A DNA stretch of 64,000 nt from Eledone cirrhosa. Its lineage: Eukaryota. Location of the stretch: the NCBI GenBank assembly GCA_964016885.1, contig OZ024747.1:88846001-88910000 (forward strand). Direction: 5' to 3'. Shown here piece by piece: positions 2,650 to 61,861 of the stretch. The position numbers and the translations under genes were made by a program. The notes below the pieces were generated by a model. The model made no database searches. It was given only the letters and a program-made list of their open reading frames with translations, and was not told the origin of the DNA. The first letter of the stretch is position 1. Every line of letters begins with the position of its first letter.

Positions 2650-3215
2650 AGAAACTGGTACTCTATTTTATTGACACTAATAGGGTAAGAAACAAAACTG
2701 ACCTTGGAAGGATTTGAACTCAGTACATAGCAATCCAGAAGAAATACCACAAAGTATTTCGTCAGATGCTCTACTGGTTCTGCCATTCCACTGTCTTTCT
2801 CTTATCAATAATTGTTTCTACTTTAGGCACAAGGCCAGCAATTACCCAGTGCATTACTGGTACTTTATTTTATCGACCCCGTAAGGATGAAAGGCAAAGT
2901 CAACCTCGGCGGGATTTGAACTCAGATCGTAAAGGGACGTAACTATGCTGGAAAGCATGGCGTCCGACCCTCTACTGATACTGCCAATCCACCACTTTCT
3001 CTTATCAATAATGGTTTCTGATTTAGGCACAAGGCCAACAATTTTGGGGAAGGGAAAAGTTTATTAAATTTACCGCAGTGCGCCTCTGGTACTTTATTGA
3101 CCCCGTAAGGATGAAAGGTAAAGCTAACCTCAGCAAGAGTTGAACTCAGAATATAAAGAACTGTAACTATATACCGCAAAATATTGTCTGATGCTCTACT
3201 GATTCTCCCATTCCA
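2650..3215 (-). mobile_element. Cluster of three tRNA-derived SINEs (central domain resembling the Meta/MESC type)
   Basis: Repeated CTGGTACTTTATTTTATCGACCCCGTAAGGATGAAAGGCAAAG..GGATTTGAACTC. The domain name is from recall and unverified. Confidence 0.8.
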
Positions 3216-3779
3216 CTGCCTTTCTCTTATCAATAATAAAAGCTTAATCAAGTTAAATATCTTAGATTTCATTCCCTTTTACCTCCTGACCAAGCTTATT
3301 TTCACTATCATCCCTATGTACTATTAAATCTGTCTTCTTGTGATGACTGTTGTTATGGTAACATCATGTTGATAGTTATCTGTTTAAGAAAATCTGTAAA
3401 TTTTAATTAGATCTTAAAAACCAGTTTTAAAATTCAGTTCTCTTGAAGATTAATATGATCTTTTAAGAAGGATATTTATTATTCTCAAATGATTTTTAAA
3501 CATGGAAGATATTCCTTGAAGAAAGTGCCTGAAAATATGTAAGATGTTGGAAGTTGGATAAAGAACTGAAAGAATGATGGTGCTGGAGAGTGAAGGCACT
3601 CAGTCGTGTAATTATACAGTGAGATTAGAAGATGAGAGCTAATTAAAGATGTGTGCTGAAGAGTTTAAGACTTTCGAAGAAATAAAATGATGTGCTTAAA
3701 ATTTCATTTGGGGAGCTTAAGATTCTTCAATGAATTGAAGTGAAACTATCAGAGACATAGATAGAGAAATGTTGAAGAC

Positions 3780-14604: not shown

Positions 14605-14761
14605 TACATATATATACATATATATATATATATACATATATATACATATATATATATATACATTTATATAGATATATATATATATACATATATATACATA
14701 TATATATATATACATATATATATATACATATATATATACACATATATATATACATATATAT
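12230..14761. repeat. 2.5-kb degenerate (TA)n/(TATG)/(TACA) microsatellite
   Basis: Direct inspection; interrupted by a SINE tail at 13229-13282. Confidence 0.95.
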
Positions 14762-16189
14762 AGTAATAATAATAAAATTGAAGACTAAAATCCAAAGAGG
14801 GCTCGATAAGGAAAATGTATATCAAATATATAAGAACCGTAGAGCAAATATTTATTAAAATAGCAGATTAAAGTTTAAGCAAAGAATCGCTGCTTTCACC
14901 CTTAACGGGATCTTCTGAAACTAACAAAGTCAATCTGTAAACGCAGAACTGGATATTTCAAAAAACGTTGCAACCGGAGGAAGACAGGAAGACGATACTT
15001 TGGTTCGTGGGAACGTTCGCTGGCAAAGAACGGGAAAAAACAAATATTACGTCATTAATAGGAGCGGTGAAAAACAATTACGCGCAAAGACAGAACCACG
15101 TTTATGGTATAAAAGAGGTCGTAGACTAAAGTTCTCTTAGGTGGTGCATAGAGACGTTCTCTGGCAATGAACGAAAAAACGAAGATAATAAGTCATATGT
15201 GGAGCGTGGACAACAATAGCTCGCAAAGACAAAACCACGTAAATGGTATAGCAGAAGTCGTAGACTAAACTTCTAACTAGGAGACCAAATGAATCTCCGC
15301 TACAGAGTTAAGAACAAAGTAAATAAATACAATACAGAAGTAATAGAAACAAATAAATACATACACGCAAACAGATACGTACATACACAAGCATACGCAA
15401 AACCTTACCATTGGTATACAAAACCATGCACATGTAAATATGTGTGTATGTGTATGCTTGTGTGCAAATAAATAAATAATTATATAAACGTATATAACAA
15501 GCGCACACACATACCTACATGTAAATACACGAATGTTCGGAGACGTAAGTCAACTAAAACAAGAAGTACACATATACACACACCCACCATACGTACGAAC
15601 CTGCATACTCACGCAGACGCAAAACTCCCGTATACACATAGCCAAACCCTAAATACCAGACTATGTAAAAATTATACGCCAAACAGTCAAATATACGTAC
15701 GAGAAGGTATACATACCTTCACAAAACATACGGGTAATATATACTTACCTATGCAAATAAGTAAAGGAATAAACAAAACATATACTTAGCTCCCACATCA
15801 AGACGTAAAATATCCACGTATAGATCGTGCTATCCGTTAGGGTATAACGTGGGGCTGTAATACAGGAAAGTTTTGTGCAATTTATGTTTACAAACCGAAA
15901 TTGCCTCAGATTTTTTGTTTAAGATGTGGTCTGTGGCGTAGAGTATTTCCAGGGCCTCAGCGGCGCAGAGGTCACATGGTCTTTTATTTCCGTTATACGA
16001 TCTAGCCCTAGCTAGGATCTTCCAGTGTAACTTATATTGGGTGTGGTTGTCTTTTAGACTCCAGATATAAGCTGAAAGTGACGTCATATTCCTTCTTAGA
16101 GGGTAACAAAAAGAATGGGTATGCATGTAAAGACGCTGCTTGAAACTATTGGCGGTTAACCCTATGTAGGCCCTACGGGACGTGAGTGT
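14762..16189 (-). mobile_element. Penelope-like element copy 1: 5'-truncated, GIY-YIG endonuclease C-terminus plus about 1.07 kb of 3' region
   Basis: Minus-strand frame [23 protein letters not shown]...[12 protein letters not shown]...[14 protein letters not shown], stop at 15830. Flanked on both sides by (TA)n arrays and closely similar to 17501-18863. Confidence 0.9.
14872..14922 (-). ncRNA. Variant type I hammerhead ribozyme motif in PLE copy 1
   Basis: Minus strand reads AGTTT-CAGAAGA-TCCCGTTAAGGGT-GAAA-GCA...TGCT-T-AAACT. Stems I-III can be drawn; the core is CAGAAGA instead of CUGANGA. Confidence 0.6.
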
Positions 16190-20317
<4,128 letters not shown>

Positions 20318-26538: not shown

Positions 26539-26987
26539 CCTTTCTGTATCTACATCTATCTATATAACTATGTGTCTTATTCCAATATAAAACAATCAAA
26601 TCAAGAAGGAAAAAAACAATGACTAGTGTGTAATATTAGTTCTGTGTCTATGATTAAAATACAATACAATATAATTTACTAGTTTCATTTCATGTTGAAT
26701 GTTTCCAGAAAATGTTACTTTCTGCTCCCAAAGGTGACTCAGAAATAGGAGAGTTGTTTATTGATCCCTGTTGGAAGGATATAAAAACCTCCAAGGACCA
26801 GATTAGATATAACCTATAATACATAGTATTTACTAATGGACTAATCTATAATTAAAGGGTTTGCATGCCAAATAGCTATGTGCATGACCATGTATATCTG
26901 TAGATGTGGGTGGGTGATGAGAACATTGACAACTTTGGGTGTATATAATTATAAAAACATCCAATTCACAAACACACACACACATCC

Positions 26988-27060
<73 letters not shown>

Positions 27061-27183
27061 CTCAAAATACACTGTCTCTTAATTAATTAATTTGGGATTT
27101 CATTTCGATTGAGCAGGCAGTTTTCAAAATACACATACTTGCACACATGAATGGATATACATATATGTGTTTGTATGTGTGTG

Positions 27184-27271
<88 letters not shown>

Positions 27272-27463
27272 GAGGGAGGGGGGGAGAAGCTGATCATTAG
27301 ATTGGGCCTAGGAAACAATGTTTCCCTTGGTAATTCCATTACTGATATTATCAGCCAGTTGCAATTTCTGGCAGAAGGAATGATGTGAAATAAAGTATTT
27401 TGATCAAGATCACAGTGTATCACTGTCTCATGGAATCAAAACCATGACACCCCACTCGCTCTT

Positions 27464-27524
<61 letters not shown>

Positions 27525-27526
<2 letters not shown>

Positions 27527-27715
27527 TTAAAATAACAGGTTAAAGTTTAAGCGGAAAGGAAAATTTTCTGGAAACATTCAACATGAAATGAAACTAGTAA
27601 ATTATATTGTATTGTATTTTAATCATAGACACAGAACTAATATTACACACTAGTCCTTGTTTTTGTCCTTATTGAGCCCTCTTTGGATTTTAATCTTCAA
27701 ATTTATTATTATTAC
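27525..27715. mobile_element. Mini PLE derivative: both termini of the local PLE family flanking an inverted copy of 26601-26726
   Basis: Left end ATTAAAATAACAGGTTAAAGTTTAAGC matches 17501-17527. Right end TCCTTATTGAGCCCTCTTTGG...ATTATTATTAC matches 20051-20100. The middle is the reverse complement of 26601-26726. Confidence 0.85.
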
Positions 27716-27839
27716 TATATATATGTATTTATATATAGTTTAGCAATTGTAACATCAAGTTACTGTTGGTTCACCAAATTAAGCACCCGATGTATAGTTT
27801 CCAGTATGTACTTTGGGGTTGTACTAAGGAGAGTATAAT

Positions 27840-33482: not shown

Positions 33483-34505
33483 GTGTTTTACTATAGTCAG
33501 AATGTTAATAGAAGTTCTCTGGATTATAACAGTCTTTGCCAACAACTGCCAATTTTGTTGACTACCTCTTAACCTCTCTGTGATGTACTTGCTTTAAAAT
33601 GAGTGACAACTATGATTGCATGGAAGTGTCCATGTCTGCATCCTCTAATACCACTTTGGAATACTGTGATGATCTTTATGATGAGTCCGGGACCAACTCT
33701 GCAGTGCTGTATGCCATGTCAGCTGCTGACAGCACAGCACAGAATCAGGAAACTTGTAGAAAGAAAAATCCCCAGAAAAGATCATTGTCGAAAGGAATGA
33801 AACCATCTAGCCTCGATAGCTCAACCAGTGGTTATTCCATCAGTAGCAATGTGCCGTTTCTTAAAGGTCGGACTGAAAAAGATGAGTATGTACGTTGTGC
33901 TGTGAATGCAACTAATATTGGCAATGATGACGACGAAAGAGAATGTGGTTTGGGAGGATTTCGGCCGGAATGCCTCAATGTCTGTGCAAATATTAGATCT
34001 TTTGTCTTTTTTATGTGTCTATTGTTAATTGTTACTGGATCGTTATCTACAGGTTATTTGAACAGTGTTATAACAACTATTGAGAAACGATTTGAAATTG
34101 GAAGTTCAATATCAGGACTAATTGCTGCTTCTTATGAATTCGGATCACTTGTAGCAGTAATTTTTGTCAGCTACCTTGGCAGTAGAAGACACATTCCAAA
34201 ATGGATCGGTGTTGGAGTTGTGTTCATGGGATTTGGAGCTATTTTTTTCTCAATGCCTCATATCATAGCTGAAAAATATACATTAAAAGACAAGATCATT
34301 AACAGTACCAAGGAAAACATCTGCCGGTCAATAGCAGGTGGAGCTGGTAATCGCTGTATTGATAAAAACTCTGGTAACTGGAAATACGTCTTGATATTAA
34401 TCATTTCACAAGTTCTCATCGGTACTGGAGGAACACCAATACTTACTCTCGGAACTACATATGTTGATGATCATGTGACCAAAGAAAAAGCCCCATTATA
34501 TCTTG
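33483..34505 (+). CDS. SLCO/OATP organic anion transporter (SLCO5A1/Oatp30B-like), first coding exon; CDS 33599-34505 preceded by 116 nt of 5'UTR
   Basis: Polypyrimidine tract plus TTGCAG acceptor ending at 33482, ATG at 33599, donor G|GTAAGT at 34505/34506 (phase 1). The translation carries OATP hallmarks: GYLNSVITTIEKRFEIGSSISGLIAASYEFG, FVSYLGSRRHIPKWIG, GTPILTLGTTYVDD. Confidence 0.95.
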
Positions 34506-34762
34506 GTAAGTTTTCATATTCTATTTTGCTTTAATTCTTTATATTTTGAAAAGTAGCCTTTTATATTAAAAAAATTAAGATAAGGTATATAAATTATTTA
34601 TTTAAAGTATCTAATATGCTTTAATAAAGGGTGGTGGATTAGCAGAATAAAATAAATAATATCAAAATCTCATAGATTCGATATTATGTGAAATAATTAT
34701 GTGAGGTAAAATCTTTACCATGAAAATACAATAGTAAATACAGAGTAATGAGAATGCTAAAG

Positions 34763-44490: not shown

Positions 44491-44580
44491 TATTAGTAGT
44501 ATAATAATGAAACTAACAATTTTACATATATAAATTATTTATATTTTTCTCTCTCTCTTTTTTTACTTTTCTCATTTCAG

Positions 44581-44892
44581 CTTTTATTTATGCGACAGCT
44601 GCTTTGGGTCCTGTTGTTGGATATGCCCTTGGAGCGCTACTTTTGCAGTTCTATGTTGACCTGTTTTCCTACAATGTTTCCCTGACCCCTTCAGATCCTC
44701 GCTGGATTGGAGCTTGGTGGGGTGGTTTCATTATCTGTGGGGTAGTTCTAATCCTTATGTCCCTTCCATTTTTTGCCTTCCCCAAAGTTCTCAGTAAAGA
44801 GAAGCGCAAGATACTGGAAAACAAAACCAAAGAGCTTCTTCTTAATGAGGAAGACCAGATAGCTAATAAAGAATATGGCCGGACCATAAAAG
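44581..44892 (+). CDS. SLCO/OATP coding exon 2 (312 nt)
   Basis: TTTCAG acceptor at 44580 and G|GTAAGC donor. Reads (A)FIYATAALGPVVGYALG...DPRWIGAWWGGF, the OATP signature, in frame with the previous exon. Confidence 0.95.
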
Positions 44893-44989
44893 GTAAGCTG
44901 ATTAATATTTACTGTTCTTTCAACTCTCGTTAACAATTTCTTTCATCATCATCACCTCATTGTTGTCATCATTTAACATCTGTTCTCCC

Positions 44990-47900
44990 AGCTAACAAGG
45001 AGACCCAATCAATAGTCAGATCCATTGGCCTCCCAGATAGGCCAGTATACATACTAGCAAGGAGATCAAGTCAATAGTCAGATCCACTGACCTCCCAGAT
45101 AGGCCAGGTATATATACATACTAGCAAGGAGATCAAGTCAATAGTCGGATCCACTGGCCAGGATATATACATACTAGCAAGTCAATAGTTAGATCCACTG
45201 ACCTCCCAGATAGGCCAGGATATATACATACTAGCAAGGAGATCAAGTCAATAGTCAGATCCACTGGCCAGGATATATACATACTAGCAAGGAGATCAAA
45301 TCAATAGTCAGATCCACTGGCCAGGATATATACATACTAGCAAGGAGATCAAGTCAATAGTCAGATCCACTGGCCAGGATATATACATACTAGCAAGGAG
45401 ATCAAGTCAATAGTCAGATCCACTGGCCAGGATATATACATACTAGCAAGGAGATCAAGTCAATAGTCAGATCCACTGGCCAGGATATATACATACTAGC
45501 AAGGAGATCAAATCAATAGTCAGATCCACTGGCCAGGATATATACATACTAGCAAGGAGATCAAGTCAATAGTCAGATCCACTGGCCAGGATATATACAT
45601 ACTAGCAAGGATATCAAGTCAATAGTCAGATCCACTGGCCAGGATATATACATACTAGCAAGGAGATCAAGTCAATAGTCAGATCCACTGGCCAGGATAT
45701 ATACATACTAGCAAGGAGATCAAGTCAATAGTCAGATCCACTGGCCAGGATATATACATACTAGCAAGGAGATCAAGTCAATAGTCAGATCCACTGGCCA
45801 GGATATATACATACTAGCAAGGAGATCAAGTCAATAGTCAGATCCACTGGCCAGGATATATACATACTAGCAAGGAGATCAAGTCAATAGTCAGATCCAC
45901 TGGCCAGGATATATACATACTAGCAAGGAGATCAAGTCAATAGTCAGATCCACTGGCCAGGATATATACATACTAGCAAGGAGATCAAGTCAATAGTCAG
46001 ATCCACTGGCCAGGATATATACATACTAGCAAGGAGATCAAGTCAATAGTCAGATCCACTGGCCAGGATATATACATACTAGCAAGGAGATCAAGTCAAT
46101 AGTCAGATCCACTGGCCAGGATATATACATACTAGCAAGGAGATCAAGTCAATAGTCAGATCCACTGGCCAGGATATATACATACTAGCAAGGAGATCAA
46201 GTCAATAGTCAGATCCACTGGCCAGGATATATACATACTAGCAAGGAGATCAAGTCAATAGTCAGATCCACTGGCCAGGATATATACATACTAGCAAGGA
46301 GATCAAGTCAATAGTCAGATCCACTGGCCAGGATACATACATACTAGCAAGGAGATCAAGTCAATAGTCAGATCCACTGGCCAGGATATATACATACTAG
46401 CAAGGAGATCAAGTCAATAGTCAGATCCACTGGCCAGGATATATACATACTAGCAAGGAGATCAAGTCAATAGTCAGATCCACTGGCCAGGATATATACA
46501 TACTAGCAAGGAGATCAAGTCAATAGTCAGATCCACTGGCCAGGATATATACATACTAGCAAGGAGATCAAGTCAATAGTCAGATCCACTGGCCAGGATA
46601 TATACATACTAGCAAGGAGATCAAGTCAATAGTCAGATCCACTGGCCAGGATATATACATACTAGCAAGATCAAGTCAATAGTCAGATCCACTGGCCAGG
46701 ATATATACATACTAGCAAGGAGATCAAGTCAATAGTCAGATCCACTGGCCAGGATATATACATACTAGCAAGGAGATCAAGTCAATAGTCAGATCCACTG
46801 GCCAGGATACATACATACTAGCAAGGAGATCAAGTCAATAGTCAGATCCACTGGCCAGGATATATACATACTAGCAAGATCAAGTCAATAGTCAGATCCA
46901 CTGGCCAGGATATATACATACTAGCAAGGAGATCAAGTCAATAGTCAGATCCACTGGCCAGGATATATACATACTAGCAAGGAGATCAAGTCAATAGTCA
47001 GATCCACTGGCCAGGATATATACATACTAGCAAGATCAAGTCAATAGTCAGATCCACTGGCCAGGATATATACATACTAGCAAGGAGATCAAGTCAATAG
47101 TCAGATCTACTGGCCAGGATATATACATACTAGCAAGATCAAGTCAATAGTCAGATCCACTGGCCAGGATATATACATACTAGCAAGGAGATCAAGTCAA
47201 TAGTCAGATCCACTGGCCAGGATACATACATACTAGCAAGGAGATCAAGTCAATAGTCAGATCCACTGGCCAGGATATATACATACTAGCAAGATCAAGT
47301 CAATAGTCAGATCCACTGGCCAGGATACATACATACTAGCAAGGAGATCAAGTCAATAGTCAGATCCACTGGCCAGGATATATACATACTAGCAAGGAGA
47401 TCAAGTCAATAGTCAGATCCACTGGCCAGGATATATACATACTAGCAAGATCAAGTCAATAGTCAGATCCACTGGCCAGGATATATACATACTAGCAAGG
47501 AGATCAAGTCAATAGTCAGATCCACTGGCCAGGATATATACATACTAGCAAGGAGATCAAGTCAATAGTCAGATCCACTGGCCAGGATATATACATACTA
47601 GCAAGGAGATCAAGTCAATAGTCAGATCCACTGGCCAGGATATATACATACTAGCAAGGAGATCAAGTCAATAGTCAGATCCACTGGCCAGGATATATAC
47701 ATACTAGCAAGGAGATCAAGTCAATAGTCAGATCCACTGGCCAGGATACATACATACTAGCAAGGAGATCAAGTCAATAGTCAGATCCACTGGCCAGGAT
47801 ATATACATACTAGCAAGGAGATCAAGTCAATAGTCAGATCCACTGGCCAGGATATATACATACTAGCAAGATCAAGTCAATAGTCAGATCCACTGGCCAG

Positions 47901-49847
47901 GATACATACATACTAGCAAGGAGATCAAGTCAATAGTCAGATCCACTGGCCAGGATATATACATACTAGCAAGGAGATCAAGTCAATAGTCAGATCCACT
48001 GGCCAGGATATATACATACTAGCAAGGAGATCAAGTCAATAGTCAGATCCACTGGCCAGGATATATACATACTAGCAAGGAGATCAAGTCAATAGTCAGA
48101 TCCACTGGCCAGGATACATACATACTAGCAAGGAGATCAAGTCAATAGTCAGATCCACTGGCTAGGATATATACATACTAGCAAGATCAAGTCAATAGTC
48201 AGATCCACTGGCCAGGATATATACATACTAGCAAGATCAAGTCAATAGTCAGATCCACTGGCCAGGATATATACATACTAGCAAGGAGATCAAGTCAATA
48301 GTCAGATCCACTGGCCAGGATATATACATACTAGCAAGGAGATCAAGTCAATAGTCAGATCCACTGGCCAGGATATATACATACTAGCAAGGAGATCAAG
48401 TCAATAGTCAGATCCACTGGCCAGGATATATACATACTAGCAAGGAGATCAAGTCAATAGTCAGATCCACTGGCCAGGATATATACATACTAGCAAGGAG
48501 ATCAAGTCAATAGTCAGATCCACTGGCCAGGATACATACATACTAGCAAGGAGATCAAGTCAATAGTCAGATCCACTGGCCAGGATATATACATACTAGC
48601 AAGGAGATCAAGTCAATAGTCAGATCCACTGGCCAGGATATATACATACTAGCAAGATCAAGTCAATAGTCAGATCCACTGGCCAGGATACATACATACT
48701 AGCAAGGAGATCAAGTCAATAGTCAGATCCACTGGCCAGGATATATACATACTAGCAAGGAGATCAAGTCAATAGTCAGATCCACTGGCCAGGATACATA
48801 CATACTAGCAAGGAGATCAAGTCAATAGTCAGATCCACTGGCCAGGATATATACATACTAGCAAGGAGATCAAGTCAATAGTCAGATCCACTGGCCAGGA
48901 TACATACATACTAGCAAGGAGATCAAGTCAATAGTCAGATCCACTGGCCAGGATATATACATACTAGCAAGGAGATCAAGTCAATAGTCAGATCCACTGG
49001 CCAGGATACATACATACTAGCAAGGAGATCAAGTCAATAGTCAGATCCACTGGCCAGGATATATACATACTAGCAAGGAGATCAAGTCAATAGTCAGATC
49101 CACTGGCCAGGATATATACATACTAGCAAGATCAAGTCAATAGTCAGATCCACTGGCCAGGATACATACATACTAGCAAGGAGATCAAGTCAATAGTCAG
49201 ATCCACTGGCCAGGATATATACATACTAGCAAGATCAAGTCAATAGTCAGATCCACTGGCCAGGATATATACATACTAGCAAGATCAAGTCAATAGTCAG
49301 ATCCACTGGCCAGGATATATACATACTAGCAAGGAGATCAAGTCAATAGTCAGATCCACTGGCCAGGATACATACATACTAGCAAGGAGATCAAGTCAAT
49401 AGTCAGATCCACTGGCCAGGATATATACATACTAGCAAGGAGATCAAGTCAATAGTCAGATCCACTGGCCAGGATACATACATACTAGCAAGGAGATCAA
49501 GTCAATAGTCAGATCCACTGGCCAGGATATATACATACTAGCAAGGAGATCAAGTCAATAGTCAGATCCACTGGCCAGGTATATATACATACTAGCAAGG
49601 AGATCAAGTCAGATCCACTGGCCAGGATATATACATACTAGCAAGGAGATCAAGTCAATAGTCAGATCCACTGGCCAGGATACATACATACTAGCAAGGA
49701 GATCAAGTCAATAGTCAGATCCACTGGCCAGGATATATACATACTAGCAAGGAGATCAAGTCAATAGTCAGATCCACTGGCCAGGATATATACATACTAG
49801 CAAGGAGATCAAGTCAATAGTCAGATCCACTGGCCAGGATATATACA
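44990..49847. repeat. 53-bp satellite, about 90 units (4.8 kb), in SLCO intron 2
   Basis: TACTAGCAAGGAGATCAAGTCAATAGTCAGATCCACTGGCCAGGATATATACA, with a 50-bp variant (3-bp deletion) and a T>C variant. Confidence 0.97.
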
Positions 49848-52450
49848 TTCTCATACTCTATACTGTGCACTTAGTATGTTTTATCATGTTTTATCATTAC
49901 AGCAGCATTAGAGAGGTTGACTTTGACATAACTGAAAAGTTCCCTGACCCTATTTTGGCAAGTTTTTTTATGACTAGATGCCCTTCATATCACCAAACAC
50001 ATTGTGTACTAAGAGTGTTTTATCATGGCACCCACAACTAAAGAGTTTTTCTGACACTATTTTAAACAAGTTTTCTATAGCTGGATGCCCTTCATAACAC
50101 CAAACACTTTACTATATACATGGTGTGGCACCAACATTAGAGAGATTATTGGGCCCTTGCCACATCTGAAGAGGCCTATTGGCCCTTTTTATATTATAAT
50201 AAATTTTTTTATTTACCCTCATGTGGTATATTTGACTTTCATTATTACGAGGTTGATAAAATAAAGTACCAGTAATGCACTAGGGTCAATTTAATCGACT
50301 TTGCCTTTCTCTTCAAATTGCTAGCCTTATACCAAAAGTAGAAATAATTATCATTATCATTATCATGTATTGTCCATCTGTATAGTCCATAAGTATAGTT
50401 AAACATCATAATATGAGTGTGTGAATAACTCACCTACAAACATTACTATCTTGAACTATTGGTAGTCCAGGTGTGAGTGTGCTTTTCATAGTTTTTGACA
50501 GGTTATCTTTTTGGCTGTTTGCCCTACCTAACACCAACCACTTAATTCCTTTCATGGCTGTATTTCCACTGAAATACATCCTATTTTAATTAATTAGTGC
50601 TTATGTGAACTTTGACTGAGAAGACTTATAATCTAAAACATTCCAGCTGTGACCAACATATTTTTCAGTCAGGACCACATTATCCAATGTATCCTTTCTT
50701 CCTTCTTTTTTAAAGATAGTAATGAAGGATTTGAAGGAGATTTGTCTGCTATTTCTAACAGGTCGAGGTGTACAGAAGCTCTCAAAATGAGTCAACATTG
50801 AATTTTAACACCCTGTCTGTGAAGCCCAGTTTGGGTTGGCATGATGAAAATATGATTAAAAACTATATATATATATATAACAGATGAAATAAAGATACAA
50901 TTGCAATTATTGAAACTTGCCAAACCATGTCAATCCTATTGGCATCTGTAAATAAATATAAAAATGGTACATGGTAGAAAAGAAAAAGCCAGAAAAAATA
51001 TGTGCAGTGGTGTTTATTTATGGAAATAAATGGAGAAAAAATTAAACTGCACATACAGCAAATATGCTGAAGGAAACATTTATTCTGCTGATGCAGGAAT
51101 TTGTTTAAAAATACACAACGAAAAGTGATGTGTGAGAATGTACTGGTTCCCTCTATTGCTGAAAGTCAATGGAATGGAATGGAATAATAGCCTGTGTGAT
51201 TTAGTTGTGAAACATTATTGGATAAATAAAAATGGAACAACACTGCTCTGTCAGCACCATTAGCAGTTGCAACAGATATTGTGTTCACAGTTTACATACA
51301 TGTGTACATAATACATACCCACATACACATATACACACATAGATGCATATACATACACACACAGGTGCACATATACACACACACACACACTCACATGCAT
51401 GCACACAAGCATGTGCACACACACACACATACATATGTGAGGTATCCGGAGATATAAGGTGAAAGAAAAAAAATGCTCAATCTAGTTGAAGAGAACTTAT
51501 TTAATATTCAACACTTAACATGCAAGTGCTAACTGGACCCTGAAACCAAAGGTAACACATACATTTTAAGTGTTTGTACATTACTAAAAACTATATCATT
51601 ATCATCACCGTTTAACATCCATTTTTCCACGATAGCATGGGTTAGATGAGTTGCCTCATTGTGAGACAAGCCAGATCAGATGACCCATGTCTTGTTCATA
51701 CAGAACTGGTTTGGGCTTCATTTCTATGGCTGGATGCCCATCCTAACACTAACCACATTTACAGTGTGTACTGGGTACTTTTTGCCGTGTCAGCTACATG
51801 ACCACTTTACAGTGTGGACTGTGTGTTTTTTGTTGTATCACTGACATGAACACTTTACAGAGTGGGCTGGGCACTTTTTATTGACCACTTTACAGTGTAT
51901 ATAAATATCTCCATGCATACATACACATATATATATTATGTATATATATGTAGGCGGTTGTGTCTTGACACTTCTGTGAATTGCAATTCAACTGAAAACT
52001 TTGCTGGATACAATTAGGTAAAATGGAATAACATTATTTATTCAAAGCTGAGTCTGCATGAGTAGTTATTGGAGCTTCTTATCCTCAGTCTTCAGTTGTC
52101 TGAACTCTGATAATGAGAAATTCTGATTAGTGGCCTGAGGAGACTCACCTCTAATTAGTCAGACGCTTTGACGCATAGAGTTACGGTCCTTTATGATCTG
52201 AGTTCAAATCTCGCCGAGGTTAACTTTACCTTTCATTCTTACGGGATCGATAAAATAAAGTACCAGTCACGCACTGAGTCGATTTAATCGACTTTCCCCT
52301 CCTCAAAAAATTGTTGGCCTTGTGCCTATATAAGAAACAATTATATAAAACAACACCAAATTTCAGCAGCAGCAAATAAAAACATTGAAATAATAAAGTA
52401 AGCTTTATTCCATCGTTAAGTTTTTCTGTTTTTTTTCTGTTCAAATTCTA

Positions 52451-52657: not shown

Positions 52658-54690
52658 GAAACCCTCTCTAGAGACCTGCTTTAACGAAAACCAAGGCTTA
52701 CCTTATTTCTAGCAGTCTTACAACATGCTGGGTAGTCATAAATATGTGTGTGCTTGCAAGCATGTTATTGCATGTGTGAATCTGTATGTTTGGACTTGTG
52801 TATGCGTTGTACTTTGTACATATACATATTTTCACATGTCTATATGTATGTATGAATGTCAAAGGGAAGAGGAACTCGGGAGAGTCGATGGTCATCCAAT
52901 AACATTTTTTTTCTTTTTGTGGAGTGAGAGACTCCTAGTCTTCATTAAGACATCTCTCTAGGAGAAGGTCACTCTCATATAAAACCTTCGACATCGTTTG
53001 TATCCAATGATGTAGACTAGTTCTTCTCTTAGGGCAAATGCATTTGATGTTCAGAGAGTGGGATTGGCCCCGTTCAAAGCCTTTCCTCAGTTAAAAAAGC
53101 TTCAAGCACAGGCATCGCTTGATATGTGATATATTTTGAGATGCATGGTATTGCTGGCCATAGGCAAGTCCCTAGCGAGACTAAAAAGCCATGGCATTAT
53201 TCAGAATTGAGTTGCAGCCATCATCATCATGTATGTATGTATCTCTATATCCTACAGGCTAAATCTTTAGGAATGTTTAATATGTTTTTAACTATGTTGT
53301 TTGTATATGTGAGAGAAAGAAAGATAATAGACTCTTTCGATTTGATAGTCACTTCAAATTTCCAAAGTTGTGAACTTGTGAAGCTAGCAATGTTTATCAT
53401 GGTTCTCAAATCCATCAGTCTTTTGACTGTTGCTGGTTTGTCATTTGGTGCCATAGTCATAAATAATAGGGACAATACACAGTGTCTGTCTATCCCTTTC
53501 ATGTTATTTCAGTGGCTGTGTAAACTTCGCTGTTTTCATTTAAATATTTATAAATTACATACTGCTTGTCATCATCACCATCATCATCACCACCACCATC
53601 ACCATCATAACCACCACAACCACCATCACCATCATCACCACAACCACCACATCCACCACCACCACCATCACCATCATAACCACCACAACCACCATCACCA
53701 TCATCACCACAACCACCACCACCACCACCATCACCATCATAACCACCACAACCACCACCACTACCACCATCACCATCATAACCACCACAACCATCATCAT
53801 CATCATAACCACCACCACCTTCATCATCATCATAACCACCATCATCATCATCATCATAACCACCACCACCATCACCACCATCACCATCACCACCATCACT
53901 ATCACCACCATCATCACCCCTACCACCTCTACCACCACCATCATCATCAACACCACCACTACCACCATTTAATGTTTATTTTCCATGTCTGCTGGGTTAG
54001 ACAAGTTATGTTCATATGTTCAGTTATGTTCTTTACTTAGTTTCTATGGCTAGATACCTTTACTAACACCAACCACTTTGCAGCATGTACTGGTAGGATT
54101 TTTCATGTCACCAGCTCTACCTACCTTACAGAGGTAGAACAACAACAACAACAACAACAACAAAAACAACAGCCTCATTTCTAGATCGATATGTGTAGAG
54201 TCAGTATTGCCTAGTGGATTATGTATAGGATTGACAGAATAATGAGTTCAAATTCATTGTAGGTGTTTCTGTATGTTTTTTGGGGACAAGACATTTTATT
54301 CTATACGCCACAGTTTATAGAGAAAATAGGGAGAATATATTGCAAAACCTCTGAGAAATGTAACCAGATTAACCCTTTAGCAATTAAACCAACTGTATCT
54401 GGCCAGGATTCTCTCACTTCTTTCTGTTCAAACTGGTCATAACTAGCCACTCATACTTATGTTAAGGCATTGTTCTCAAAATAAATAGATAAAATAAAAC
54501 ATGTTTAACCCTTTAACATTTACATTACTCTATACAATTGTATTTTTATGGTAAAGGTTTTATCTCATAATATCGGATCTATAATATTTTGATGTTATTT
54601 ATCTTGAGAACAATACCTTAACATCAGTATGAGTGGCCAGTTTTGACTAGTTTTAATAGAAAGAGGTGAGAAAATTCTGGCCAGATATAT

Positions 54691-55601
54691 AATATAATGA
54701 AATTATTGTGTACAGTGCTCAGGTGCACTACAACTCATCAAAGGTGCATGTATAGTACATAGAATAATGTACAAATGTCAGGAAAATAAACAGTGTATGA
54801 GTCATGATATAATAACAATAACAATAATGAAATATTGTGCACAGTGCCCAGGTGCACCACAACCCATCAAAAAAGTGCATGTACAGTACATAGGGCAATG
54901 CACAAACATCAGTAAAATGAACAGTGCACACATGTGTGCATGTGTATGGAAGGGGCACATCAGGTGTAGTTTTGGCGTATTTCGGGAAGCATGAGTGTCT
55001 TAAAGGATGCAGTGTCTCGGCAGCTAACAATTGACGCAGGCAGTTTGTTCCATGTTTCAGCAACTCTGAGCGTGAAAAAATGTCTGCGAAAGTCATGGGA
55101 GCTGTGCTGTTTTCTTATCTTGTAGGCATGTCCACGTGTGTTAGATACATGGAGATCAAAGAGGCGCTCAGGGTTGCAGTTGGCGAGATGGTTAAAAACT
55201 TTGTGGGTATTCACCAAGTCCACTGCCAGACGTCGGAGCTTCAATGAATCCATGCCCAGGGAAGCAAGGCGTTCAGAGTATGGTAGGTGTCTGATGGAGG
55301 GTATGCGCTTGGTTGCACGTCTCTGAACAGTTTCCAGGAGGTCAATGTTCCGAGCAAGATAGGGGTTCCAGACTGATGATGCGAATTCCAAGTGTGGTCG
55401 CACCATAGCTGTATACAGTTTTAAATAGATGGCTGGAGAGCGGCTAACAAAGGTCTTGCTGAGTGATGCCAAGACACCCTCGGCCTTCTTGACAATCTTA
55501 GAGACATGCTTTGTCCAACGCAAATCGTTGCTGACAGTAATGCCCAGGTCACGTTCACAAGAGGACTTTTTGATGTCAGTGTTGATGTCAGTTTTGATGT
55601 C
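54691..55601 (-). mobile_element. CR1/L2-group LINE 3' fragment with two tandem 3' tails, inserted into a MITE
   Basis: ORF 54960-55523 (VRPHLEFASSVWNPY...LETVQRRATK...TRGH...FFTLRV..WN.LP) is a CR1-type RT C-terminus. Putative target-site duplication AGATAT at 54683-54688 and 55603-55608. Confidence 0.9.
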
Positions 55602-55837
55602 AAGATATGGCCAGTTTAAATACTAAAGGGTTAAACAAAATCTCTTCACTGAAATACACTTCTGCTATCGTATAATAAGGTCATTTATGCCATTTCTATA
55701 ATATTCACTATCCCTAGAATCAATAAACTGTTTAAAGGTTTCTTCTTAGCTGCTATATCTTAGAACTGGTTATTCTTTGTATAGCTGTCAAGGTCTTTGA
55801 AAATATAATATTCGGTAGGAGGGATGTCAAGAGAATA

Positions 55838-60951: not shown

Positions 60952-61755
60952 ATAATAATAATAATGAAATTATTGTGTACAGTGCTCAGGTGCACTACAA
61001 ATCATCAAAGGTGCATGTATAGTACATAGAATAATGTACAAATGTCAGGAAAGTGAACAGTGTATGAGTCACGATATACACACAGATACATGCATACGTG
61101 TATATGGAGGAGAAATATCAGGTAGAGTGTTGGCAAATTTCGGGAAGCCTGGAAGTTATGAAGGATGCAGTGTCCCAACAGCTAACAACTGAAGCAGGTA
61201 GTTTGTTCCATGCTTCAGCAACTCTGAGCGTGAAAAAATATTTCCGAAAGTCATGGGAGCTGTGCTGTTTTCTGACTTTGTAGGCATGCCCACGCGTGTT
61301 AGACACATGGAATTCAAAAAGGTGCTCAGGGTTGTTGTTGGCAAGATGGTTAATAATTTTGTGGGTGTTTACCAAGTCAGTTGCCAGTTGTCGGAACTTT
61401 AATGTATCCTTGCTCAGAGAAGCAAGGCGTCCAGAGTATGGTAGATGCCTTATGGAGGGTATTCGGTTGGTTGCACATCTCTCAACAGTTTCTGGGAGGT
61501 CAATTTTCTGAGCAAGATAGGGGTTCCAGACTGGTGATGCAAATTCTAAGTGTGGCCTCACCATAGCTATATACAGCTTTAAATAGAAAGCTGGAGAGCG
61601 GCTGACAAAGATCTTGCTGAGTGATGCCAAGACACTTTCGGGCTTCTTCACAATTTTAGATATGTGCTTTGTCCAACGCAAACCATTGCTGACATTAATG
61701 TCCAGGTCATGTTCACAAGAAGACTTCTTGAGATTAGTGTTGTGGAGGGAGTACG
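60952..61755 (-). mobile_element. CR1/L2-group LINE 3' fragment inserted into a MITE
   Basis: ORF 61118-61681 is homologous to 54960-55523, with an (AAT)n tail at about 60952-60964. Confidence 0.9.
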
Positions 61756-61861
61756 TGAATGCTTACAAGAATTTAAGCAAATGTCCACCCCACCCCCTAT
61801 TATTTGAGACCCAAGAGTATTTACTAAAATAATATCCTTTGTTCTTTTGTTGACATTGCAG

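What the first reader, a model, noticed from the sequence alone, without database searches (positions are those of the whole stretch)
26601..27715. Mini-PLE that has captured an inverted copy of neighbouring genomic DNA
Seen: 27525-27715 starts with the same short left end as PLE copy 2 (17501) and finishes with the same long right end (20051-20100). The ~125 bp between them is a near-exact reverse complement of sequence about 0.9 kb upstream (26601-26726). Both junctions show microhomology to the PLE (AGC on the left, TCCTT.TTGA on the right), and the left switch lies within about 3 nt of the predicted ribozyme cleavage site. Inference: a template jump onto local DNA or RNA during integration, or microhomology-mediated repair of a collapsed palindromic element. 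Either way it creates a 125-bp inverted repeat in the locus and a route for host-sequence capture.
Basis: partly seen in the sequence, partly recalled or inferred. Interest (0 to 1): 0.8.

Follow-up and report, generated by a model that had tools for sequence, protein, structure and literature searches.

The report
Retrotransposon scar holding inverted local DNA
The two ends of a 197-base Penelope-like retrotransposon stub are bridged by a flipped copy of single-copy DNA lying 0.8 kb away, likely a rare one-off repair scar made as the element inserted (as known for human L1), not a mobile cargo-carrying element.

Summary
27522-27718 consists of a 31-nt short arm and a 57-nt tail arm of a Hydra-type Penelope-like element (PLE; at least 16,908 tail matches in the genome). 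Between them is a 109-nt filler that is the reverse complement of 26601-26726 (120/126 over both junctions; 93-nt perfect core). Donor and filler are the only two copies found. Public contigs carry the right junction; the left junction was not recovered.

In this family two outward-facing arms are normally joined head-to-head by a few bases of microhomology. Here an inverted local copy bridges them: 0 of 168 other two-armed copies had one, but 3 of 291 other insertions have an arm joined to an inverted copy of their own flank.

Best reading: DNA-templated fold-back synthesis while the integration break was closed, as in L1 foldback inversions and R2 snap-back junctions. The ribozyme link is not supported: 179 junctions at the predicted cut site versus 206 at a control site. 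The stub is single-copy and lacks the ribozyme and ORF, so it is a scar, not a demonstrated capture vehicle. Interest is moderate.

The parts
26601..26726 (+). Donor: single-copy genomic DNA, the source of the filler
   Evidence: 120/126 to 27550-27675, inverted; 2 of 2 candidates genome-wide; contigs of X1 and X3 letter-identical to the assembly here
27482..27521 (.). (TA)20 target microsatellite, preceded by (CT)n; no target-site duplication can be told
   Evidence: sequence
27522..27552 (-). Short (tail-less) PLE arm, antisense, reference positions 3168-3138
27550..27552 (.). AGC microhomology shared by the short arm and the donor end; followed by 3 substitutions in 10 nt (27553, 27559, 27562) at a small hairpin in the donor
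27553..27661 (-). Filler proper, 109 nt, inverted copy of the donor; 93-nt perfect core 27563-27655; one substitution at 27656
27662..27675 (.). Imperfect 12/14 homology between the tail arm's inner end and the donor start; PLE letters kept at both mismatches
   Evidence: junction present in contigs of X1 and X3
27662..27718 (+). Tail-bearing PLE arm, sense, ending at reference 3258, followed by TA-rich flank
17495..20103 (.). PLE copy 2: long antisense arm (17495-19654, 3' part of the RT/GIY-YIG ORF) joined head-to-head to a sense tail arm (19657-20103); shows the family's normal architecture
14760..16191 (-). PLE copy 1: single tail arm, 5'-truncated
19941..19989 (+). Putative minimal hammerhead of the family (core reads CAGAAGA...GAAA...UU); predicted cut 19985|19986, equal to 27548|27549 in the stub
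   Evidence: drawn by hand from the recalled consensus; no Rfam hit; not the lowest-energy fold

Best explanation
The stub has two outward-facing PLE arms bridged by an inverted copy of single-copy DNA from 0.8 kb away, and the bridge was likely made by fold-back DNA synthesis while the integration break was being closed. Inferred steps: (1) the element's endonuclease cut both strands in the (TA)n; (2) each 3' end primed reverse transcription at one of the two start sites, giving a 31-nt arm on the left and a 57-nt tail arm on the right; (3) the arms did not anneal to each other as they usually do; the left fragment was resected by about 1 kb, and the left arm's 3' end (AGC) folded back onto its own strand at 26724-26726; (4) an alt-end-joining-type polymerase (Pol theta-like start with errors, then accurate copying) copied about 110-125 nt; (5) the new end annealed to the tail arm's cDNA through the 12/14 match and the gap was filled. 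Shown: the anatomy, the single-copy donor, the microhomologies, the error clustering and the family's joining pattern. Inferred: order of events, direction of synthesis, which polymerase.
For: Family pattern: among 50 junctions of two-armed copies in the unselected set, 31 overlap by 1-7 nt, 10 are blunt and 9 have 1-4 extra nt (overlaps read from BLAST ends). Arms can be bridged by a third piece: an internal PLE fragment in L110, and arms of two different families are joined head-to-head in L152 and L080, so each arm looks separately made and then joined. A PLE protein cuts and extends both strands and starts RT at two sites that define the tail (PMC11167929). Three further insertions have an arm joined to an inverted copy of their own flank: L101/L142 (about 200 bp, 92%; other genomic matches 80% or less), L155 (60 bp, 98%; single-copy), L240 (74 bp perfect). 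All four local copies are inverted, which a fold-back on the same strand predicts. All 4 substitutions in the filler proper lie within 15 nt of its ends (P about 0.005 if placed at random). L1 shows the same product: foldback inversions of 52-220 bp in 0.3% of insertions (PMC10191854); R2 cDNA ends prime on nearby target DNA (PMC11371274).
Against: Pol theta templated insertions are generally under 25 bp (PMC12426944); 109 nt from 0.8 kb away is far outside that, and about 1 kb of resection is needed. The product keeps PLE letters at both mismatches of the 12/14 overlap, which is simpler if the tail arm was the primer (rival 1). The excess of local inverted copies at arm ends is weak: 2 of 144 junction points by the automated test versus 5 of 870 random flank points (Fisher p 0.26); it reaches p 0.02 only with a boundary rule chosen afterwards (2 of 144 versus 0 of 870). 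In the three other cases the donor lies on the side opposite the arm and there is no second arm, so they are related, not identical. Four inverted of four is p 0.125 against 50:50 (arithmetic). The left junction was not recovered in contigs of 3 of 3 runs.
Confidence: 0.5

Rival explanations
1. Same event, opposite direction: the tail arm's cDNA 3' end invaded the donor duplex (same chromatid or sister) through the 12/14 match, copied 110 nt, slipped at the donor hairpin and annealed to the short arm by AGC (break-induced-replication-like switch).
For: The primer's own letters are kept at both mismatches (27665, 27671). The 12/14 site is the only one that good for this 14-mer within 2 kb on either side, and only 10 of 186 PLE 14-mers have such a site. 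No long resection is needed.
Against: Invasion of duplex DNA does not predict a fixed orientation, whereas the 4 local copies seen are all inverted; the three other cases end in the target microsatellite, as a self-primed fold-back would.
Confidence: 0.2
2. The element's own reverse transcriptase jumped from PLE RNA onto a nascent + strand host transcript across 26601-26726 (possibly a 5' intron of the OATP gene), or onto displaced target DNA, and back.
For: The left arm's continuation needs a + strand template, and the OATP exons at 33.6 and 44.5 kb are on +. One L1 insertion with co-inserted local pre-mRNA is reported (PMC10191854). PLEs carry host sequence between terminal repeats in a rotifer (PMC3846280). 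The switch lies 1-4 nt from the predicted hammerhead cut, where a cDNA would run off.
Against: No excess of junctions at the predicted cut site (179 versus 206; 8 of 212 arm ends within 4 nt). Ribozyme cleavage was not needed for insertion in vitro (PMC11167929). It is not shown that the donor is transcribed. None of the four filler changes reads as A-to-G on the + strand. The three other cases are fold-backs around a microsatellite, which need no RNA.
Confidence: 0.14
3. A longer palindromic PLE copy inserted first, later broke (cruciform or fork stall), lost its centre and was repaired with a templated insertion.
For: Most two-armed copies are palindromes, and microhomology-mediated deletions in PLE copies are reported (PMC3846280). 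The end product would look the same.
Against: Equally short arms are common with direct joins (L068, L087, L096, L118), and arm ends pile up at one reference position (36 of 212 at 3093-3100, 6 in the 43 positions before), which points to primary truncation. One event is more economical than two.
Confidence: 0.12
4. Assembly or library artefact (inverted chimera), or the filler is a dispersed repeat or part of the family consensus.
For: No contig with the left junction in X1, X2 or X3, and no branch at all in X2. The locus is flanked by microsatellites.
Against: X1 and X3 each hold a 70-75 bp contig across the right junction at the donor's own depth (3.78 versus 4.05; 7.62 versus 7.6), and the donor contig is split exactly there. 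The filler differs from the donor at 4 non-PLE sites, and the arms differ from copies 1 and 2. The donor is single-copy and absent from the full-length reference copy.
Confidence: 0.04

Closest known systems
L1 foldback inversions and locally templated insertions (PMC10191854, passages; PMC11702581, passages and section 7)
   Same: A retrotransposon insertion joined to a 50-220 bp inverted or templated copy of DNA near the target, at well under 1-2% of insertions, attributed to extra DNA synthesis when the break is resolved.
   Different: Here the element is a PLE with two overlapping outward arms and no poly(A) or visible target-site duplication; the copy sits between two RT arms and comes from 0.8 kb away rather than from the immediate flank; it is an inherited genomic copy, not a somatic or cell-culture event.
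R2 snap-back 5' junctions (PMC11371274, passages)
   Same: The cDNA 3' end primes further DNA synthesis on the cDNA or on nearby target DNA before the junction is closed.
   Different: R2 has one arm and a fixed rDNA site; the data are engineered insertions in human cells.
Hydra-clade Penelope-like elements (PMC8557442, passages and section 11)
   Same: [quoted passage not shown]
   Different: The stub is a non-coding remnant; the unit is 3.26 kb (paper: generally under 3 kb); the tail is about 88 nt (paper: 30-40 bp); the hammerhead core is non-canonical; a local inverted filler is not described in the parts read.
Host DNA between Penelope pLTRs in Adineta vaga (PMC3846280, passages)
   Same: Unrelated host sequence framed by PLE terminal repeats; head-to-head junctions with palindromes and microhomology.
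   Different: Those are long (0.9-1.5 kb or gene-sized) and some moved to new sites with target-site duplications; here the donor is local, inverted, short and not re-mobilised.
Pol theta templated insertions (PMC12426944, passages)
   Same: Insert templated from sequence flanking a break, primed by minimal pairing, with unmappable bases at the joints.
   Different: Typically under 25 bp; here 109 nt from 0.8 kb away; the polymerase is untested.

Membership tests
Hydra-clade PLE (parent family of the arms) | Single ORF, RT with C-terminal GIY-YIG endonuclease | tested here: met
   708-aa ORF in L063 with YRDD at 348 and YIG at 600. By motif only: Pfam and PDB sequence searches gave no hit.
Hydra-clade PLE (parent family of the arms) | RWK motif, DKT, CxCx5C linker, CxxC and CxH around E and N, no CCHH | tested here: met
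   RWR at 37 (R for K), DKT 115, CxCx5C 566, CxxC 661, CxH 689, no Cys between the IVY and YIG motifs, no Cx2-5CxxC against section 11 of PMC8557442
Hydra-clade PLE (parent family of the arms) | Insertion into (TA)n; tandem and inverted structures; tail at one end | tested here: met
   3258-bp tandem unit in L063
Hydra-clade PLE (parent family of the arms) | Canonical hammerhead in the terminal repeat | tested here: inconclusive
   A hammerhead-like layout is conserved (55 of 82 extracted copies identical) but the core reads CAGAAGA, Rfam gives no hit and the fold is not favoured; supplementary file S2 of the paper was not read
Hydra-clade PLE (parent family of the arms) | Placement in the Hydra clade by RT phylogeny | not tested
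   No reference Hydra proteins were fetched
Mobile non-autonomous mini-element carrying cargo | Several copies sharing the cargo | tested here: not met
   Filler found only here and at its donor
Mobile non-autonomous mini-element carrying cargo | Retains the cis elements for transcription and binding | tested here: not met
   Holds only reference 3138-3168 (antisense) and about 3202-3258; hammerhead core, putative start site and ORF 5' region are absent
Foldback / locally templated insertion at a retrotransposon junction | Donor is local, single-copy and inverted | tested here: met
Foldback / locally templated insertion at a retrotransposon junction | Microhomology at both switch points | tested here: met
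   3 nt left, 12/14 right
Foldback / locally templated insertion at a retrotransposon junction | Arose in the same event as the insertion (empty allele lacks arms and filler together) | not testable with these tools
   One whole-genome sample; the RAD-seq runs laid (X4, X5) do not cover the filler or donor
Pol theta-mediated end joining product | Dependence on Pol theta | not testable with these tools
   Needs a retrotransposition assay in a knockout
Pol theta-mediated end joining product | Short insert (generally under 25 bp) from the near flank | tested here: not met
   109 nt from 823 bp away versus PMC12426944

The most novel reading that the evidence does not exclude
The telomerase-like RT of this PLE itself switches from its RNA onto local host nucleic acid (resected target DNA or nascent pre-mRNA) and hands the product to the second, separately primed arm. 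PLE integration would then be a two-RNP, double-strand-break reaction whose inner joint can take in any nearby template. This would explain how host DNA gets between PLE terminal repeats, and in this genome it would have written short local inverted repeats at perhaps 1% of some 17,000 or more sites.
Probability: 0.15. Interest if true: 0.65.

Novelty: new variant of a known kind. Interest (0 to 1): 0.36.

Why it matters
How PLE insertions are finished is still open; the one in vitro study says the later steps are not validated (PMC11167929). This locus and its family give a genomic read-out: both ends of a break are extended separately, then joined by microhomology, and now and then bridged by a third template. 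That puts PLEs beside L1 and R2 in their use of break repair and offers a young family of over 16,900 copies in which the model can be tested by counting. The single locus has no shown function. It creates a 126-bp inverted repeat 7 kb upstream of an OATP coding exon that would form a long RNA duplex if transcribed, which is untested. As a route for gene capture it is weak: short, local and not re-mobilised.

Tried and rejected
Ribozyme cut site as the switch point: rejected at family level (179 versus 206 junctions; 125 at +4 with a different pattern; 8 of 212 arm ends). Many of these pattern hits are PLE-to-PLE joins or small deletions, so the counts are rough.

Filler as dispersed repeat or family consensus: rejected. 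Donor alleles as the source of the mismatches: none seen in one sample.

Candidate second cases rejected on inspection: L151, L215, L266, L269, L145, L080, L007, L009, L117 (other repeat families, most with inverted structure of their own), L190 (spurious 29-nt arm), L185, L038, L250, L284 (SINE-like dispersed sequence), and direct-orientation hits (tandem repeats).

A single pattern for 'both arms with a spacer' could not be run, so no whole-genome census was possible. Rfam gave only microsatellite-driven and other sub-threshold matches. Pfam and PDB gave nothing for the ORF. No RNA holder listed. The look-up of earlier findings returned nothing.

Full report
Observation. The sequence is as described. 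27550-27675 is the reverse complement of 26601-26726 at 120/126 without gaps; the left end matches PLE copy 2 at 26/27 and the right end at 63/67. The stub runs 27522-27718 (197 bp) after (TA)20. It has a 31-nt antisense arm, AGC shared with the donor, 109 nt of filler, a 12/14 overlap with the donor, and a sense arm ending in the tail. The six mismatches cluster at the joints and leave a perfect 93-nt core; two are PLE letters in the overlap and four lie in the filler within 15 nt of its ends (P about 0.005). A genome search with the donor region found 2 of 2 candidates, donor and filler.

Read support. Six runs were listed and five laid. X1-X3 are contigs of one sample, which may be the assembly's own source, so they are not independent of it. 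In X1 and X3 the donor contig is split at the right edge of the shared core, and a 70-75 bp branch crosses the right junction at the donor's depth (3.78 versus 4.05; 7.62 versus 7.6). These branch contigs differ from the assembly at 1-2 unlisted letters. The contig holding the core is 12% and 22% deeper than its neighbour; about 18% is expected if the core is present twice (my arithmetic; weak). X2 shows no branch, and no run shows the left junction, which leads into (TA)n and may have been clipped. The left junction is therefore unconfirmed. RAD-seq runs X4 and X5 do not cover filler or donor.

Parent family. One tail pattern has 16,908 exact matches in the 3.0-Gb genome and a variant 616 more. 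A tandem copy gives a 3258-bp unit with a 708-aa ORF bearing the motif set listed for the Hydra clade in PMC8557442 (section 11 and passages read). No tree was built, and Pfam and PDB searches were blank. Copies sit in (TA)n as two outward-facing arms, one ending at reference about 3170 and one at 3258. This matches the two RT start sites and the cutting and extension of both strands reported for an anole PLE (PMC11167929; parts 1-2 of 4 read).

Survey. I examined 292 distinct insertions including the focal one. Ninety were unselected: 90 of the first 100 listed tail matches, all from the start of contig C1. Fifty-four came from the tail variant or were best hits to the stub, and 147 were chosen for junctions near the arm ends; duplicates and loci without an anchor were dropped. 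169 had both arms in view, 104 had one arm followed by other sequence, and 19 ran off the locus. In the unselected two-armed set, 31 of 50 junctions overlap by 1-7 nt, 10 are blunt and 9 have 1-4 extra bases. None of the 168 other two-armed copies had a locus-unique filler (95% upper bound 1.8%). Their longer gaps were poorly aligned PLE interior, later repeat insertions, simple repeats, or a few pieces I could not place (such as L055, L176, L194). Three one-armed insertions have the arm joined to an inverted copy of the adjacent flank, folded around the target microsatellite: L101/L142, L155 and L240. That is 3 of 291 (about 1%; CI 0.2-3%) and 1 of the 90 unselected. L240 was found by eye; the automated test missed it. 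Against random flank points the excess is weak: 2 of 144 versus 5 of 870 (p 0.26), and p 0.02 only under a boundary rule chosen afterwards. The automated test looked for donors within 1.5 kb; one search looked across 8-10 kb for the loci fetched. Farther donors would be missed.

Ribozyme. A hammerhead-like layout lies at 19941-19989 (drawn from the recalled consensus). Its core is non-canonical, Rfam misses it, and it is not the lowest-energy fold. The left switch is 1-4 nt from its predicted cut, but like-for-like patterns give 179 junctions at the cut and 206 at +8. Only 8 of 212 arm ends fall within 4 nt of it, against 36 at reference 3093-3100. The nearness is probably chance.

Mechanism. 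The filler's top strand is complementary to the donor's top strand, the same strand that carries the short arm's 3' end. A fold-back of that end onto its own resected strand gives the inversion directly; annealing of the new end to the tail arm by 12/14 closes the gap. The three other cases fit fold-back of the opposite, unextended end. I put this at 0.5. The reverse direction (tail arm as primer, 0.2) explains the kept PLE letters better. An RT jump onto a + strand transcript (0.14) is possible because OATP exons lie on + at 33.6 and 44.5 kb, but transcription of the donor is unknown. Later collapse of a palindrome is 0.12 and artefact 0.04. The polymerase is not identified; the insert is much longer than typical Pol theta inserts (PMC12426944, passages).

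Comparison and novelty. The product type is known. L1 foldback inversions of 52-220 bp occur in 0.3% of somatic insertions, with one local pre-mRNA co-insertion (PMC10191854, passages). Three L1 insertions with locally templated DNA and three with flank inversions are reported (PMC11702581, section 7 and passages; its Figs S9-S10 not seen). R2 shows snap-back onto nearby rDNA (PMC11371274, passages), and host DNA between PLE repeats is described in a rotifer (PMC3846280, passages). Eight searches of the open library showed no report of a local inverted filler between PLE arms; most hits were seen only as listings, subscription journals are largely absent, and no supplements were read. So it works like an L1 foldback or R2 snap-back junction, its arms fit the Hydra clade by motif, and it fails the tests for a mobile cargo element.

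Verdict. Real, rare and ordinary in kind; new for this class of element as far as searched. Its value is as one piece of evidence on how PLE insertions are completed. Interest 0.36.

Noticed in passing
window 19937-19944 (reference 3093-3100); family-wide: Inner arm ends pile up sharply here: 36 of 212, plus 17 at 3101-3108, and only 6 in the 43 positions before. The peak A (19940) sits in TTAGTT, an initiator-like word (recalled consensus; D. virilis Penelope has an initiator in its repeat, PMC2377424 passages). Likely RT run-off at the transcript's 5' end, 46 nt before the predicted hammerhead cut; a small palindrome at 3099-3105 may also favour joining.
   Followed up: partly
L152:3980-4125; L080:1494-1560 (oriented): A short arm of this family is joined at its inner end to the inside of a second (TA)n-targeting repeat family of similar two-ended build, whose end faces outward: 2 of 104 open junctions. 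Suggests one insertion templated by two different RNAs.
   Followed up: partly
L101/L142 (G000:C1:120855783-120856238), L155 (G000:C15:25637013-25637243), L240: Single PLE arms joined to 60-200 bp fold-back duplications of the flank around the target microsatellite.
   Followed up: yes
L110:1494-1697 (oriented): Two very short arms bridged by 130 nt from the middle of the PLE ORF: the same build as the focal stub with an element-derived filler.
   Followed up: partly
L185:4011-4070; L176:4011-4046; L194:1522-1571; L055 (oriented): Fillers between arms: 24 nt of a SINE-like repeat (L185), and AT-rich or unique pieces of 18-105 nt not placed.
   Followed up: no
window 19941-19989: The family's hammerhead-like motif has CAGAAGA where CUGANGA is expected (recalled), yet 55 of 82 extracted copies are identical; whether it cleaves is open.
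   Followed up: partly
window 33584-34534 and 44517-44933 (+): Coding exons of an organic anion transporter (OATP, PF03137); the stub and donor lie about 6-7 kb upstream of the first.
   Followed up: no
window 44992-49851: 4.9-kb tandem array with a period of about 53 bp, 95-96% identical.
   Followed up: no
window 54689-55622 and 60954-61762 (-): Two related 3' fragments of a LINE-like RT element, 82% identical; no Pfam hit for the first.
   Followed up: no
L215, L266, L137, L064: A 1.1-kb repeat with 220-bp terminal inverted repeats, 97% identical between loci, found directly against PLE tail arms in L215 and L266; L064 shows a GIY-YIG-like open frame overlapping it.
   Followed up: no
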